Below, in pieces: positions 14,803-23,760 of a stretch of 44,975 bases of DNA. Source of the DNA: a virus (taxonomy: Duplodnaviria; Caudoviricetes); IMG/VR virus record IMGVR_UViG_3300005512_000073, positions 1 to 44,975 of that record, one strand, 5' to 3'. How positions within the stretch are numbered: the first letter of the stretch is position 1; every line of letters starts with the position of its first letter. Below the pieces are notes generated by a model. It was not told the origin of the DNA, made no database searches, and worked only from the letters and a program-made list of their open reading frames with translations. The position numbers and the translations under genes were made by a program.

Positions 14803-14948
14803 TACCAGTTAACCATTCTGCTTACTATGGAAACATCCATTCCTGATTCTTCATAAACCATCCACAACTCTGCGGCGTTACCATAATCCTCTTCAAAGGC
14901 AATCTCAACACCTGTTTCGTTATTCACGATAAAGTACATCTCACGCAT
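14802..14948 (-). CDS. Small hypothetical protein (48 aa)
   Basis: MREMYFIV...MVNW, TAATG-coupled on both sides. Confidence 0.6.
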   Translation of the reverse strand: MREMYFIVNNETGVEIAFEEDYGNAAELWMVYEESGMDVSIVSRMVNW

Positions 14949-15088
14949 TATAAAGTCTCCAACATTTTCTGAAAGTCTGCAATCATACCTTCGGCGGCTT
15001 TGACTGCTTTTTCATCACCCATAGCTTTGTATTTAACAATGTTTTCTTCGCAAGCTGCGATATAGTCTAAGATACCTTGTTTCATCAT
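14948..15088 (-). CDS. Small hypothetical protein (46 aa)
   Basis: MMKQGILDY...LETL, coupled to the next ORF. Confidence 0.6.
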   Translation of the reverse strand: MMKQGILDYIAACEENIVKYKAMGDEKAVKAAEGMIADFQKMLETL

Positions 15089-15124
15089 ATACTCACTTTC
15101 ATTACATAGATTGCAGATCTGCAT

Positions 15125-15264
15125 GATATTGTAAGAAGTGGGAAACGCAAGACCCTTTCCTAACCAGTGGAGGATAGAGGCACTTTAGAAAAGCGGGGCA
15201 TTGGTGCTCTCTGGGACTCCCCTTCAAGCCTCTATATCTTGCTCTCTTTTCTTCTTACATTATC
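15125..15264 (-). ncRNA. Candidate structured non-coding or leader RNA
   Basis: Three nested helices in a GC-enriched intergenic stretch directly after a promoter. Confidence 0.6.
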
Positions 15265-15293
15265 AATGTAACCGATTCGCTACTAAATGTCAA
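15265..15293 (-). promoter_or_regulatory. Sigma70 promoter
   Basis: TTGACA-17-TACATT with CGAATCG in the spacer. Confidence 0.75.
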
Positions 15294-15692
15294 CTAGTAT
15301 TTGATGATTTTATTTGGAGTCTTAAAGTTTTTCTTACGCATGATTGTTTTCATTACAACATCAAACTCATCATTGCGTTGATCATATGTAACTGCAACAG
15401 GAATGTTCAAGTCCTTCTGCATGTCTTTAATGACTGCTTCTGCGCCTGCAACGCCCTTGATAGACTTACCTTGTTGCTTATAAACTTTCTTGATGAACTC
15501 TGCTAGTTCTCTCATTGTAATACATGGATTATTACGCTCATCACCCATACGATCTGCAAAGTGTCTTGTAAAGTTGAAATCAAGTTTAAACTTCTTAAAG
15601 AGTTGATCAACGATCTTTTCGAACTCTTTGATCTGCTTCATTCCAACAAGGTCACACTGTGCTTCTTGTAGGTGTTGCTTAAAGCTACGCAT
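15294..15692 (-). CDS. RelE/BECR-fold RNase-like protein with capsid-targeting-like N-terminus
   Basis: MRSFKQHLQE start; FT.HF.DR...R and V.KTIMRK motifs. Confidence 0.5.
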   Translation of the reverse strand: MRSFKQHLQEAQCDLVGMKQIKEFEKIVDQLFKKFKLDFNFTRHFADRMGDERNNPCITMRELAEFIKKVYKQQGKSIKGVAGAEAVIKDMQKDLNIPVAVTYDQRNDEFDVVMKTIMRKKNFKTPNKIIKY

Positions 15693-16641
15693 CCCATTGA
15701 ACTCCCTTAGGAACATAAGAGTTAATCTTCATACGTAGAGATTTTTCTAACTTATCAACAGGGATTGGTGGTTTACCTTTACGTTTTACATAAAAGTAGT
15801 TTGCGTCTTTGATATACATTCCACCTTTAGTTTTCCCTTTCATACCAATCTTTTGACCAGCCTTGCCAGATTTCATAACCTCACTGTCCACATCAACCTT
15901 ATTGAAAGCAAAAGCAATGTCACCATCCATGTATTTACGCAATCCTTCACCCATGTTCACAATGTCGCCCATGGTCTGTGAGGCACCTCTGTGAGTGTTT
16001 ATAAGTATTTCTACAGGAACTCTACGATCACGCTCTAGGTTTTGTTGTTTAGCTACTTCGATATCATTTACAACCCAAACAATGTGGATGTTTTCTTTTG
16101 GATAACCAATAGCAGAAACTTGGCGTGTAATGTTCTGTAGCTTACGTAAATCCTTTAGGGTAACATCAAAGATAATATTTGGCTTGCGATCCGAAGGTGC
16201 AGTCAATACAGATGCAAAGAAAGCTTTCATACGACGATCAGGTAGTTTCATTTCGTCGCCAATGATTTCATGTAGCTTTGCAACATTCTTTTCATTTTTC
16301 AAGGCACCTTTTTTGAGAGCAATAGCTTCAAGATCAACACCAAACTCTGCTTTTGCACGTTTGCGAATGATAGGAGTCTTTGCTGCAAGCGTTTTAAGTT
16401 CATCAACATCAAAAACTTTACCCTCAATACCAACTAACTTATCTTTAACGAAACCTTTACCTGATCCTGCACCACCTGCCATAATGACAATATTACCAAA
16501 CTTAGGATATGCTTGACCACCAAAGGTGATTAGGGCTTCTATAAGCTCATCGTATTGGCTTTCGATGTATTCCTCACGAATAGAATCGAAAGCATTATCT
16601 TCTTGAAAGAGTTCATCAATAAAAGAACTAAACTTCTGCAC
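15685..16641 (-). CDS. P-loop kinase (zeta-toxin/PNK-like) with capsid-targeting-like N-terminus
   Basis: Walker A GGAGSGKG, DVD, IIFD.T, and N..R.R.VP lid. Likely GTG start at 16641 after GGAG. Confidence 0.75.
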   Translation of the reverse strand: MQKFSSFIDELFQEDNAFDSIREEYIESQYDELIEALITFGGQAYPKFGNIVIMAGGAGSGKGFVKDKLVGIEGKVFDVDELKTLAAKTPIIRKRAKAEFGVDLEAIALKKGALKNEKNVAKLHEIIGDEMKLPDRRMKAFFASVLTAPSDRKPNIIFDVTLKDLRKLQNITRQVSAIGYPKENIHIVWVVNDIEVAKQQNLERDRRVPVEILINTHRGASQTMGDIVNMGEGLRKYMDGDIAFAFNKVDVDSEVMKSGKAGQKIGMKGKTKGGMYIKDANYFYVKRKGKPPIPVDKLEKSLRMKINSYVPKGVQWDA

Positions 16642-16668
16642 TTTAATCTCCATAGAATGTTTTTCTTT

Positions 16669-17963: not shown

Positions 17964-18040
17964 TGGCGACCCCTGAAGGATTTGAACCCTCGACCTAGTG
18001 CTTAGAAGGCACTTGCTCTATCCAGCTGAGCTAAGGAGTC
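17964..18040 (-). tRNA. tRNA-Arg(TCT)
   Basis: Full cloverleaf: AGTGC-CTTCTAA-GCACT anticodon arm, GGTTCAAATCC T arm, encoded CCA. Confidence 0.97.
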
Positions 18041-19491: not shown

Positions 19492-20076
19492 CTAAGTCAA
19501 AGCTTCGTAGATTTCTTTCCAAGTGCTAACAACATCAGCACCACCTGCATAATCAGCATTGTGACCATGCTTGATTAGGTATCCATCCAAACCTAGTTGG
19601 ATACCAAGATCAACGTTTTCAGGTTTATCTTCAACCCAAACGCAACCACTATCTTTGTAGGGAGCCAACGCTTCATCTTTGTCAGCCCCAGTGTCAAGAT
19701 AAACATACCGTTCAAACACGGTATCACCGAACAACTCCCGAAGGTTCTTGGTCCGTAAGTGTTGAGCATATTGGTCATCGCTCAAGCTAGTGATAGCGTG
19801 GAAAACAAAACCGTGTTCTTCGTGAAGCTTCTTGACATACTTGATTGCATCCCGAAGAGGGGCAAGCTTCCGTATCCAAGCACTCTCGTTGAACATCCGA
19901 ACAAGCCGCTTGCTCTCTGCTTTTTCAAGACCGTACTTAATGTGCATCTTGTATTCATCTTGAACAACAACTTCATAACCGTGACGTGCCATCCAGGCAT
20001 CGAAAGCGTATTCCCAATCAAGGAGAACACCGTCACAGTCAGTCAGAATAGTTTTGTTTTGTTTTACGTGAATCAT
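19492..20076 (-). CDS. HAD-family 5'(3')-deoxyribonucleotidase-like phosphatase
   Basis: DCDGVL, ITS, K and WVED motifs. Confidence 0.8.
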   Translation of the reverse strand: MIHVKQNKTILTDCDGVLLDWEYAFDAWMARHGYEVVVQDEYKMHIKYGLEKAESKRLVRMFNESAWIRKLAPLRDAIKYVKKLHEEHGFVFHAITSLSDDQYAQHLRTKNLRELFGDTVFERYVYLDTGADKDEALAPYKDSGCVWVEDKPENVDLGIQLGLDGYLIKHGHNADYAGGADVVSTWKEIYEALT

Positions 20077-20126
20077 TTATCTTCTTTCTTATTACAGAAT
20101 CACTATAGCGTATTCTAGAGTGATTG

Positions 20127-20582
20127 TCAAGCCGCTTCTAACATTTCTTCTGCATAGCAAACATAAGGACGATCCCACTTGCCAACATTGATGTCAATAT
20201 AAAAGTCGTGATCAAAGTAGTCAATCATTGCGTCACTGTTGTTGTAATAACCAGTTGAATAGATCGCTTCGACTAGTTCTTTGTAGAAGTCTGCGATAAC
20301 TGTTTCACCGATTTCACGCATATGATCTTCTGCCCAAGTGTGGTGAACTTGAAGGTAAGTGCCAACAGTGCGAGAATCTTGTCCACGACGATCTGCAAGA
20401 TCATCATTGAACCGTTGTGCAGCACCTAAAAAGTCTAGTGGACCTTTGAAGATGTTTACAACAAGAGTTGAGTGATGATTAACACCAACAGTAATGTCAC
20501 GACCACCGAAGCCGTATTTCTTGGCAACTGCTTTGATAGCAACTGCGATTTGCTTTTTACGTTCTTGAGACATGTAAGCCAT
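20127..20582 (-). CDS. Early hypothetical protein
   Basis: SD.M.DYF...FY..I..G.W..PY motif; own promoter. Confidence 0.75.
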   Translation of the reverse strand: MAYMSQERKKQIAVAIKAVAKKYGFGGRDITVGVNHHSTLVVNIFKGPLDFLGAAQRFNDDLADRRGQDSRTVGTYLQVHHTWAEDHMREIGETVIADFYKELVEAIYSTGYYNNSDAMIDYFDHDFYIDINVGKWDRPYVCYAEEMLEAA

Positions 20583-20645
20583 TTGGCACCTCTTTTCTTA
20601 TTACAGAATCACTATAGCATTTATTTGATTTGAAGTCAAGACCCT

Positions 20646-20837
20646 TTAACAAAAAACTTGAACATCATCTTCGCCAGTGCCACGTTTGAACATACCGATC
20701 TTTACGTTCTCTTGACCAAACTCAGCTACGGCAGCGTCATATGTCATAGATGTTGACTTCCAACGCTTCTCAGCAACAACACCGTTACCAATGTAGATGC
20801 CTGTGTTCCAATCGGGTTTTACTTGGGGTATTTTCAT
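20646..20837 (-). CDS. Early hypothetical protein
   Basis: Promoter and SD AGGAG. Confidence 0.7.
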   Translation of the reverse strand: MKIPQVKPDWNTGIYIGNGVVAEKRWKSTSMTYDAAVAEFGQENVKIGMFKRGTGEDDVQVFC

Positions 20838-20871
20838 AACATTTCTCCTTCTTACAGAATCACTTTACAAT

Positions 20872-20896
20872 AAAAAAGAGGGTTTGTCAACCCTCT
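20872..20896 (-). terminator. Terminator whose hairpin contains the next -35 box
   Basis: AGAGGGTT-GACA-AACCCTCT-TTTTT. Confidence 0.8.
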
Positions 20897-21072
20897 CAGT
20901 GAACATAATCTGCAACTAACTCGTAAACCAGATCAAGATTTTCGTTGATCATATCTAACTGTTCTTCTGTGGCAGGTTCACCGTCCACCTCACAGTCTTC
21001 AACATAAGCATCGCAAAATTTTGGATAATCATTCCAATCCAAACCACCGATTTCAACATTAGTAATATTCAT
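20896..21072 (-). CDS. Hypothetical protein (D..DYP.FCDAY family)
   Basis: Recurrent phage motif; SD AGGAG. Confidence 0.7.
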   Translation of the reverse strand: MNITNVEIGGLDWNDYPKFCDAYVEDCEVDGEPATEEQLDMINENLDLVYELVADYVH

Positions 21073-21260
21073 ACGTCTACTCCTTCTACTATATCTGCTG
21101 CTTTGTCGAACCACTCATTATAGGTCTCACCATCCAAATAGATTGACCATTTCATATACATTTCAGAGTCAACAAAGTTCCAGTTAATCGTACCATCTTT
21201 GTTAGTATTGTCTTGGTCTGTTGCGAACCAAATAAGATCATTATAAAACTTGTGAAACAT
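21069..21260 (-). CDS. Hypothetical protein (INWNFVD.D family)
   Basis: SD AGGAG. Confidence 0.7.
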   Translation of the reverse strand: MFHKFYNDLIWFATDQDNTNKDGTINWNFVDSEMYMKWSIYLDGETYNEWFDKAADIVEGVDV

Positions 21261-21271
21261 AGCCAACTCCT

Positions 21272-21415
21272 TTATGCATTGGGAACCTGTAGTTCAGCGT
21301 AAGTTACTTTCGACTCTTTACGGATTACGTGGAAAAACTTTTTCGCTGACTCATAAGTTTTGAAGCTTTTCTCTAAACCGTACTTTCCGTATATTTTGTA
21401 GTAAACTGAATACAT
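21272..21415 (-). CDS. Small early protein (47 aa)
   Basis: MYSVYYKIYG...VPNA after promoter and GAGGAG. Confidence 0.6.
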   Translation of the reverse strand: MYSVYYKIYGKYGLEKSFKTYESAKKFFHVIRKESKVTYAELQVPNA

Positions 21416-21464
21416 AACTTATCTCCTCATTACAGAATCACTATAACATTTGTTTAACTTGAAG

Positions 21465-21683
21465 TCAAGAGCATTTTTCCATTTTTATCAAAGAAGATTC
21501 TTCAGCTTCAATCATTTCAAGTTCTTCTTCTGTGATAGCATATTGAAAATGATCTACTACCCATTGAACTCGCTCTTGAATAATCTCAGACACATATTCA
21601 TCTGCATCATATACATTGTCGAAATATTTAACTTCAGGATTAGGCTCCCAGTTAGTGCCGAGTGCGGAAGTAACTTTATACAT
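21465..21683 (-). CDS. Hypothetical protein
   Basis: SD AGGAG before MYKVT. Confidence 0.65.
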   Translation of the reverse strand: MYKVTSALGTNWEPNPEVKYFDNVYDADEYVSEIIQERVQWVVDHFQYAITEEELEMIEAEESSLIKMEKCS

Positions 21684-21694
21684 ACCAACTCCTT

Positions 21695-22021
21695 TTAAAG
21701 ATATCCTGGACCCATCCAAGAAATGTTGTATCCACCATCCAAAATGTTGCCACGTGCTTTGTTACGTGTAGGACTTGCCCATGACGCAGCCTTTAGGATA
21801 TCACCTTTACGAAACTTTTTATCGTTGTCTGTGTTGACGATAAAACCCCAAACACCACCACCTTGAATGATCTTGATATACTTCTTACCGATAACATATG
21901 TCAGACCATCATTGAAACGCTGAATCATAGACTTACGAGTGTTATCGTCAGCAGTCCAACGTTTTAGTTGGGCATAGTCTGTTTTGATGTCGTTTAGTAG
22001 ATTATCAACTTGTAGTAACAT
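21695..22021 (-). CDS. Conserved phage early protein (GDILK.ASW..P...RGNI)
   Basis: Widespread phage motif; own promoter. Confidence 0.75.
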   Translation of the reverse strand: MLLQVDNLLNDIKTDYAQLKRWTADDNTRKSMIQRFNDGLTYVIGKKYIKIIQGGGVWGFIVNTDNDKKFRKGDILKAASWASPTRNKARGNILDGGYNISWMGPGYL

Positions 22022-22072
22022 AACGAATCTCCTCTCATTACAGAATCAATGTAACACCTTTTTGTTTTAAAG

Positions 22073-22312
22073 TCAAACAAAAAGTGGACGCATTTCTGAA
22101 AAAACTTTGTTATATGCATTCACCTCAGCTTCATAGCAATCGTAAAAATCACTATCACTTTCAAAGCGAGGAGAACCACTTGCGTGTTCTTCCCATACCC
22201 GATCCATTGCTTGCATACCTTCTAACAAGTCACCACGTCCGTAGGTGGTCATAACTTGCACAGCATCTTGCATGGTAGTTTCAAACTGATTAAAAGCTGG
22301 AATGCGAAACAT
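22073..22312 (-). CDS. Early hypothetical protein
   Basis: Promoter and SD AGGAG. Confidence 0.7.
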   Translation of the reverse strand: MFRIPAFNQFETTMQDAVQVMTTYGRGDLLEGMQAMDRVWEEHASGSPRFESDSDFYDCYEAEVNAYNKVFSEMRPLFV

Positions 22313-22348
22313 AGTGATCTCCTTCTGATTACAGAATCACATTACAAT

Positions 22349-22375
22349 AAAAAAAGAGGGCTGTCAACCCTCTTT
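22349..22375 (-). terminator. Terminator with -35 box in the loop
   Basis: AAAGAGGG-TTGACAG-CCCTCTTT-TTTT. Confidence 0.8.
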
Positions 22376-22658
22376 CTCATCTTCAACCCAAAATCTTACA
22401 GTAACAATATTATCTTCACGCTTTGCTATATGGTATTCACATTCTTTTTTCTTGACCAACTTACGTAAAGCTTTTTGCAGTTGTTCCTCAGTCATTTTTT
22501 CACTGCCTCAACCATTATCAAAGCGTATCCAAGAGTCTTGATGTCGATCTCTTGAACTCCCTTCCAATCCTTTTCCATTATCCGTCTTGCGCATTCTACT
22601 ACTGTCATTACAATATATCCATCCATCTAGGTTTTCCAAATCAATAGCATCATATGGA

Positions 22659-23096
22659 TCATCCATAGGCTTGTCTTGCATCGAATAGTTCCTTCAGTGT
22701 TTTCTCTTTAGCGTGGGCTTCTATCTCCCAAGGACGCTCATCATAGGGCATATCCCAATCATAAACACCCTTGTCAAACTTAACTTCATGTACCCACTTG
22801 TACACCATACGCTTACTGACATACTGCCACACGTGAACCATCTCGTGCAATATAGTTTCAACCATTTGTTCTAGGGGAAGAGATACATCGATGCGGATCG
22901 TAAACTCACGATCACCTTCATCCATACAGTCGCCATACACTCCTTGTTTTTCTGCCAACTTACGTATCGGTCTAATATTTATGTAAACTGGCTTTTTGAT
23001 ACGAGGCATTAAAGCTTCAGCGGCACAAAACACAGCAGCGTCTATCGCTTGCTTACGTTTTTTAGAACATTTTGATTCGTACTCAATAACTATCAT
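22659..23096 (-). CDS. Zincin metallopeptidase-like protein, probably leaderless
   Basis: HEMVH..Q and PWEIEA motifs; TTGACA-17-TATCAT ends 7 nt before the ATG. Confidence 0.8.
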   Translation of the reverse strand: MIVIEYESKCSKKRKQAIDAAVFCAAEALMPRIKKPVYINIRPIRKLAEKQGVYGDCMDEGDREFTIRIDVSLPLEQMVETILHEMVHVWQYVSKRMVYKWVHEVKFDKGVYDWDMPYDERPWEIEAHAKEKTLKELFDARQAYG

Positions 23097-23127
23097 ACTT
23101 AGATGATAATCGGATCTGGGCCTTTTG

Positions 23128-23760
23128 TCAAGAGTTTTTTCCTACAAATACTTCTACGTTATTAGGTAGTTTGATCTTAGAGTCGTTATGCTTATGATGT
23201 AATATGAACTGCGTATCTTTGAACTCATTAAAGATGCCTGTCCAAATGGGTCTCCAGCGATCATTCAAGCGAACATTATTTGTGGCACCTCTATCAGAGT
23301 TCAACACAAAGTCGGTGTAGCTTCTTAAGTTCATGTCAAATATGGAGTCAAATCCATACATGTGAAGTTCTGTCGCTTTTAGTCTATTGGCTGTATAGTG
23401 TACTGCCATATGACCACAGTTAAAGTTTGTGTACATGTTACCTACTGTCTCGTTAGGAAACAGCTTTGTGTATGGCGGGATTTCGGTATAGAACTCTTTG
23501 ATCTTATGACCAAATCTCATCTTAAAGTTTCCACGGTTTTGATCATACCATAGCTTTGGTCTAAATCCCAAAACCCAATCACCATCAATCTGCACTGATC
23601 CCTCTGTCAATGCAGCAGACATTTTAAAGTCTACAATGCAAGACGCATATAGATTTTGAATAGGGAAAGGTGCCTGATTACACGCAATCTTAAATCCCTT
23701 TGCAGGTTTGTATAGATTTGCATTGTCACCGTTACCAATAACATGTGCTACTCTTGTCAT
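23128..23760 (-). CDS. Sialyltransferase/Maf-like GT-A fold protein
   Basis: VIGNG, ACN, NCG..A and GFD motifs. Confidence 0.55.
   Translation of the reverse strand: MTRVAHVIGNGDNANLYKPAKGFKIACNQAPFPIQNLYASCIVDFKMSAALTEGSVQIDGDWVLGFRPKLWYDQNRGNFKMRFGHKIKEFYTEIPPYTKLFPNETVGNMYTNFNCGHMAVHYTANRLKATELHMYGFDSIFDMNLRSYTDFVLNSDRGATNNVRLNDRWRPIWTGIFNEFKDTQFILHHKHNDSKIKLPNNVEVFVGKNS

What the first reader, a model, noticed from the sequence alone, without database searches (positions are those of the whole stretch)
15095..15293. Unrecognised ~140-nt structured RNA with its own promoter and an alternative fold over the next SD
Seen: after TTGACA-17-TACATT, where sibling promoters have SD+ATG, there is no ORF. 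Instead there are nested helices TGTAAGAAG/CTTCTTACA, GCAAGA/TCTTGC and ATAGAGGC/GCCTCTAT around a GGGG/CCCC core, with a side arm. The 3' strand CTTCTTACA can alternatively pair with downstream TGTAATGAAAG, beside the SD of the 15088 ORF, around the TGCAGATCTGCA palindrome. It is also complementary to the conserved early leaders (TGTAAGAAG). I recognise no family. Possible roles: riboswitch-like leader, antitoxin/decoy RNA, or antisense regulator. Some G-U pairs favour the + strand, so the functional strand is not certain.
Basis: partly seen in the sequence, partly recalled or inferred. Interest (0 to 1): 0.8.

Follow-up and report, generated by a model that had tools for sequence, protein, structure and literature searches.

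The report
Orphan structured insert, phage early leader
An uncultured marine T4-like phage carries about 156 extra non-coding bases between an early promoter and its first gene, where its relatives have none; the insert is predicted to fold back onto the start of its own transcript and likely acts as a stabilising leader or small RNA, but no diverged copy was found to test that.

Summary
In a marine T4-like phage fragment, a sigma70-type early promoter (15293-15265, minus strand) is followed by nested helices instead of SD+ATG. No Rfam family matches. New here: 15086-15241 is an insert. Contigs from 8 of 8 runs laid (6 studies) join the flanks across it, and 0 of 33 loci encoding the downstream protein carry it. 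The 5' strand TGTAAGAAG is the ordinary early leader. The downstream TGTAATGAAAG is a second copy of that leader family, so the alternative fold and the complementarity to early leaders follow from leader similarity. The alternative helix is 0.4% of the ensemble unless the first 11 nt are blocked. Folding is moderately non-random (z -2.3 to -2.5 for the predicted transcript) and comes from the outer stems; the GGGG/CCCC core is chance-level (z -0.3). The only other copy is identical, so covariation is untestable, and no RNA run was listed. Best reading: a structured non-coding cassette that seals its own 5' end (0.45). Main rival: a decayed inverted leader duplication (0.3). The scan noted similar orphan leader inserts in other phages, none similar in sequence.

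The parts
15294..15692 (-). Upstream conserved phage gene of unknown function (PHROG 23027); its stop codon abuts the -35 box
15288..15293 (-). -35 box TTGACA of a phage early (sigma70-type) promoter
15265..15270 (-). -10 box TACATT; transcription start inferred near 15260-15258
   Evidence: start position inferred from usual sigma70 spacing (own knowledge)
15242..15264 (-). Leader A: ordinary early-promoter leader, shared with empty-site relatives; supplies the 5' strands of P1 and part of P2
15086..15241 (-). Insert of about 156 nt (45% GC, core 52%, window 38%), absent from relatives; the 3' boundary is blurred because it ends in leader B
15124..15138 (-). 3' strand of P1: inverted copy of leader A (14 of 15 complementary to 15251-15265); the part pairing with 15261-15265 faces bases upstream of the inferred start
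15142..15153 (-). 3' strand of P2, pairing with 15236-15246 (two G-U pairs, one bulge)
15154..15173 (-). Side arm P4 at the three-way junction (weak)
15174..15235 (-). P3 (8 bp, 15235-15228 with 15181-15174) closing a 46-nt GC-rich core whose fold is not better than chance
15112..15123 (.). 12-bp perfect palindrome in the linker; 1 of 3 in the window
15086..15106 (-). Leader B: second early-leader copy without its own promoter; holds the SD of the next gene and is the partner of the alternative helix
   Evidence: (X14 record 9)
14948..15085 (-). 45-aa early ORF (PHROG 4004-like, unknown function), first gene of a likely operon with a 48-aa ORF, an SDR-like ORF and a 193-aa ORF

Best explanation
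A 156-nt non-coding insert sits between two copies of the phage's early leader and is likely transcribed from the early promoter at 15293 as the front end of the 45-aa gene's message, where it is predicted to fold back and seal its own 5' end, which would make a long-lived structured RNA. Shown: the promoter consensus, the missing ORF, the insert against empty sites, and the complementary segments. Inferred: the cassette entered by recombination between similar promoter-leader sequences, as T4-type early cassettes do. A helix at the 5' terminus would slow 5'-end-dependent decay (own knowledge of RppH and RNase E). The folded domain of about 133 nt would either stabilise the downstream operon message or be cut loose in the linker at 15128-15107 as a stable small RNA. 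The next SD lies outside the domain, so no switch is needed.
For: Empty sites: a 1,456-nt contig of run X4 bridges 14900-15085 to 15248-15446 with 11 other letters between, and all 8 of 8 runs laid (6 studies) show a joint across the element. 0 of 33 loci encoding the 45-aa protein carry the insert; 24 have the promoter directly upstream, 7 have another gene there and 2 are cut. Among 37 distinct early-transcript starts, this one has the lowest energy (-42.2 against -31.1 next) and the longest complement to its own first 25 nt (9 against at most 7). P1, most of P2 and P3 have pair probabilities of 0.92-1.0, and the two non-Watson-Crick pairs inside P2 are G-U on the promoter's strand. An identical copy lies in a second assembly that differs at 13 of 2,465 positions elsewhere. 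No coding homolog was found for any frame.
Against: No diverged homolog was found, so there is no covariation (and the pattern scans). The transcript's z of -2.35 is matched by 2 of 36 ordinary coding early transcripts, and the inner 96 nt are chance-level. Five bp of the outer repeat lie upstream of the inferred start, and the DNA fold is equally non-random on both strands (z -3.6); this fits a DNA-level inverted duplication. The plus strand folds slightly better as RNA. No terminator-like site was found. Zero differences in 156 nt is expected 4 times in 10 at the flanking rate, so it shows no constraint. The SD region is partly paired with the start of the ORF even in the main fold (unpaired probability 0.15 at 15093-15092).
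Confidence: 0.45

Rival explanations
1. Neutral debris. An inverted, decayed duplicate of the promoter-leader region, made by recombination or template switching, flanks a remnant of foreign or formerly coding DNA. The fold is a by-product and the stretch only lengthens the leader.
For: The repeat extends 5 bp past the inferred start toward the -10 box. DNA folding z is about -3.6 on both strands. The core is unstructured beyond chance. One other site in the window has a higher repeat score. The insert is confined to one lineage. ATATAGAGGC also occurs as a leader/SD in a relative's promoter (L104).
Against: Three nested helices with internal loops and two G-U pairs on the transcribed strand. 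The arms differ at about 7 of 37 positions plus a 20-nt arm, while leader A is nearly unchanged in relatives, which suggests the cassette aged elsewhere and was kept (inference). No source gene was found.
Confidence: 0.3
2. A cis switch. A ligand, protein or RNA that occupies the first 11 nt frees the 3' strand 15141-15130, which then pairs with leader B and closes the SD of the 45-aa gene.
For: With the first 11 nt blocked, the predicted fold pairs 15141-15130 with 15106-15094 at a cost of only 3.3 kcal/mol (-49.2 against -52.5).
Against: Occupancy is 0.3-0.4% in the free ensemble. The match follows from leaders A and B being one family. The duplex is -8.4 against -15.2 for the own leader. 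No riboswitch family matches. Relatives express the same gene with no such leader.
Confidence: 0.1
3. A trans-acting antisense RNA against the phage's own early leaders, damping early translation.
For: The isolated 3' arm pairs with the leader at 20856 at -18.7 and with 13031 and 22042 at about -13 kcal/mol.
Against: The arm is held by its own 5' end in cis. Perfect 9-nt matches occur at only 2 other leaders, and 4 of the 7 other upstream leaders tested give -10.2 or weaker.
Confidence: 0.07
4. The element works on the plus strand or as DNA, for example a plus-strand RNA with retron-like nested ends, a hairpin or cruciform site, or a processing stem for read-through transcripts from upstream genes.
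For: Plus-strand RNA z is -3.45 against -3.16. The full 15-bp repeat would form only in DNA or in read-through RNA. No terminator-like site separates the upstream gene from the promoter.
Against: No plus-strand promoter was found upstream of 15124. I saw no reverse transcriptase among the 25 window proteins scanned, though the record is only 22% complete.
Confidence: 0.08

Closest known systems
PeSL (promoter-early stem-loop) cassettes of T4-type phages (Arbiol et al. 2010, PMC2839356; abstract and section 13 read)
   Same: A sigma70-type early promoter in the variable small-ORF region, with neighbouring modules exchanged at conserved promoter-leader sequences.
   Different: PeSL stem-loops are short terminator-like hairpins at or before the promoter, repeated about 50 times per genome and ending in SD+ATG. 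This is a single fold of about 133 nt downstream of the start, with no terminator. PeSL-like hairpins do occur elsewhere in the window (20890, 22367).
T4 RNAC and RNAD small RNAs (PMC3014915; passages read)
   Same: Small non-coding RNAs of a T4-like phage with unknown role.
   Different: Those are transcribed from the tRNA region. This element is 2.7 kb from the single tRNA and has no tRNA-like part. I did not compare sequences directly.
RBS-sequestering helices of T4 genes e, soc, 49 and I-TevI (PMC3014915; passages read)
   Same: Alternative pairing over an SD that depends on which 5' sequence is present.
   Different: There the long early transcript closes the SD. Here the long transcript favours the fold that leaves the SD outside, and a 5'-truncated RNA would close it.
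Cobalamin riboswitch (RF00174)
   Same: A few short motifs looked similar by eye (recalled lead, from no call).
   Different: No match at E up to 10, while 11 of 14 control genomes matched.

Membership tests
Any Rfam 15 family | Covariance-model score at the family's gathering threshold | tested here: not met
   only a tRNA elsewhere in the window; best hit inside the element 10.9 bits, E 4.5.
Cobalamin riboswitch RF00174 | Match to the family model | tested here: not met
   0 matches at E up to 10; controls positive.
PeSL cassette | Sigma70-like early promoter in a variable ORFan region | tested here: met
PeSL cassette | Short terminator-like stem-loop upstream of, within or just after the promoter boxes, before the start | tested here: not met
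   no terminator-like site between 14993 and 18500. The fold lies downstream of the inferred start.
PeSL cassette | SD and start codon at the 3' end of the short cassette | tested here: not met
   the start codon is about 175 nt downstream.
PeSL cassette | Recombination between cassettes, mini-circles | not testable with these tools
   Joints fall at the leader, which fits exchange there but does not show it.
Conserved structured ncRNA in general | Covariation across homologs | tested here: inconclusive
   The only other copy is identical.
Conserved structured ncRNA in general | Discrete transcript | not testable with these tools
   No RNA holder listed.
T4-type RBS-sequestering helix | SD paired with upstream leader sequence in the full-length transcript | tested here: not met
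   0.3-0.4% occupancy of the alternative helix.
Retron msr-msd | Adjacent reverse transcriptase gene | tested here: not met
   The flanking ORFs match no reverse transcriptase in PHROGs or Pfam; the family definition is recalled.

The most novel reading that the evidence does not exclude
A phage RNA device built from the phage's own early leader. Its 3' arm toggles between its own 5' end, the next gene's leader (only 3.3 kcal/mol away once the 5' end is occupied) and sibling early leaders in trans, so it would sense early-transcript load or 5'-end processing and time the shut-off of early genes.
Probability: 0.1. Interest if true: 0.75.

Novelty: new variant of a known kind. Interest (0 to 1): 0.3.

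Why it matters
Early promoter cassettes of T4-like phages normally carry small proteins. A cassette whose cargo is a folded RNA would show that these arrays also trade non-coding RNAs. A 2010 review passage (PMC3014915) states that no riboswitch or trans-acting small RNA had been functionally characterised from T4. Natural filled and empty alleles exist, which makes a clean comparison possible. The limits are real: one lineage, no cultured host, no covariation and no expression data.

Tried and rejected
Rfam: nothing in the element; cobalamin lead rejected. blastn: 50,697 phage records, best E 0.3; 72,556 plasmids, none; 50 relative records, one 16-nt chance hit inside a gene. Pattern scans of viral contigs gave 0, 3, 17, 10, 4 and 6 loci. 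I judged them chance by eye or by the model (13 of the 17 loci went to the model; best E 1.7 with filters off). The genome scan gave 0. The metagenome scan gave only the identical copy L083, which may come from the same population. Model R1 was built from two identical rows, so its reach is limited; it hit 0 of 50 and 0 of 49 records, nearly all fragments, and 0 of 33 loci. Coding remnant: the 50-codon open frame has no usable SD or start and no homolog. No RNA holder was listed, which is no evidence either way. The 8 runs laid have no cover inside the insert. Fremin et al. 2023 (PMC10690425): I saw the search listing and the supplement list; a search for three motifs found nothing, but the zip and PDF files that probably hold the sequences could not be read, so this catalogue is untested. 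A host search with a relative's tmRNA motif found nothing. Literature searches (listings only) showed no paper on this element.

Full report
Setting. The window is a 44,975-nt linear virus record, about 22% complete. It is a T4-like phage: gp32, baseplate, tail tube and ribonucleotide reductase genes are present. The nearest deposited gp32 proteins cover it at only about 49% identity (phage C48C1, marine cyanophages, Melnitz, HTVC008M). Runs holding the region are labelled marine or seawater where labelled. A close relative carries a permuted alphaproteobacterial tmRNA, a hint about the host and no more.

The observation. The promoter TTGACA-17-TACATT (15293-15265, minus strand) abuts the stop codon of the upstream gene. 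It belongs to a family of early promoters followed by a TGTAA-type leader and a start codon within about 45 nt: 7 of 8 in the window, and 44 of 44 rows in seven relatives, 42 by pattern and 2 by eye. Only this one lacks the start codon. Rfam finds nothing.

How unusual the fold is. The signal comes from the outer stems: 15147-15242 gives -0.30 and the apical 62 nt give -0.83. Among 37 distinct early-transcript starts it has the lowest energy and the longest self-complement to the leader, but 2 ordinary coding ones have a lower z. As a DNA inverted repeat it beats all but 2 of 2000 shuffles and ranks second in the window. It is probably not chance, but it is not extreme.

It is an insert. In L003, L004 and L005 the same upstream gene and a homologous promoter lead straight into the ortholog of the downstream ORF. 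Of 33 loci encoding that protein (4 are the same records as L001 and L003-L005), 24 have the promoter directly upstream, 7 have another gene, 2 are cut, and none has the insert. All 8 runs laid, from 6 studies, show contigs joining across the element. The strongest is a 1,456-nt contig of X4 linking 15085 to 15248 with 11 letters between. The 15085-to-15242 joints in X2, X3 and X5 have a short side of only 26 letters. These joints keep leader A and place the start codon at 15085. An X14 contig matches the ORF up to 15100 and continues into an ordinary early promoter, so 15106-15086 is a second leader of the same family. The filled form was found once more, in metagenome contig L083, which differs at 13 of 2,465 positions and at none in the insert. 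It may not be an independent population. I cannot exclude that the empty forms arose by deletion between the two similar leaders.

The 5' strand of the closing stem is the ordinary leader, so its partner strand is necessarily complementary to other early leaders and to leader B. The alternative helix has 0.3-0.4% occupancy in the full transcript and wins only when the first 11 nt are blocked, at a cost of 3.3 kcal/mol. In isolation the arm pairs with the leader at 20856 at -18.7, its own at -15.2 and leader B at -8.4 kcal/mol, but in the molecule it is held in cis. No terminator-like site follows, so the default product is a leader of about 175 nt on the operon message. The SD region is itself partly paired with the ORF start in the model. 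The palindrome is 1 of 3 in the window.

RNA or DNA. Two G-U pairs inside P2 fall on the promoter's strand, which is weak support for RNA-level selection. Against it, 5 bp of the outer repeat lie upstream of the inferred start, DNA folding is equally non-random on both strands, and the plus strand folds slightly better as RNA. That keeps a decayed inverted duplication of the leader as a serious rival.

Homologs. None diverged was found by blastn, by pattern scans of three collections, or by a covariance model on two identical rows. No frame has a coding homolog. One low-depth X12 contig joins 15114 to 15242 with unknown filler and may hold a diverged version; I could not retrieve it. No RNA run was listed.

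Comparison with what is known. The promoter context resembles the PeSL cassettes of Arbiol et al. 2010 (PMC2839356; abstract and section 13 read), but the defining terminator-like hairpin and the adjacent SD+ATG are missing, so it is not a PeSL. The T4 review PMC3014915 (passages read) describes RNAC and RNAD of unknown role, and RBS-closing helices whose logic is opposite to the one predicted here. The structured-RNA catalogue PMC10690425 could not be checked, because its sequence files were unreadable. Four literature searches (listings only) showed nothing on this element. Earlier notes of this scan describe similar orphan leader inserts in other phages; a look-up by sequence found no look-alike. 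I did not test those notes.

Verdict. This is a real, lineage-restricted, non-coding insert with a probable self-sealing fold. The most likely role is a stable structured leader or small RNA (0.45); neutral debris is next (0.3); switch, antisense and other-strand readings are minor. Interest 0.3. A leader-sensing RNA device is not excluded (probability 0.1, interest 0.75 if true).

Noticed in passing
L104:12109-12513 (relative G002): Permuted two-piece tmRNA gene of the alphaproteobacterial type (RF04321, RF01849; tag ANDNFAPSGYALAA), a hint that the clade infects Alphaproteobacteria.
   Followed up: partly
window 20890 and 22367 (minus strand): Early promoters whose -35 box lies inside a G-run/C-run hairpin followed by a T-run, like true PeSL cassettes.
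   Followed up: no
window 19492-23131: Array of at least seven near-identical early promoters with a GATTC-TGTAA leader, each driving a small ORF; the cargo is shuffled among relatives.
   Followed up: partly
run X12, joint 15114 to 15242: A depth-3 contig carries leader A and the insert's 3' flank with unknown filler; possibly a diverged or different insert.
   Followed up: no
L092:596-743: An unrelated phage contig has a 24-bp perfect terminal inverted repeat enclosing about 100 nt of hairpins (-56 kcal/mol), followed by an SD and ATG.
   Followed up: no
window 15685-16653: 322-aa P-loop protein with a Zeta_toxin Pfam match (PHROG 5268), two genes upstream of the element.
   Followed up: no
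window 19531-19671 (minus strand): Most stable 141-nt window in the scan (-47.6 kcal/mol), at the end of the 194-aa ORF.
   Followed up: no
window 17964-18040: Single tRNA-Arg(TCT), also present in 6 of the 7 relatives fetched.
   Followed up: no
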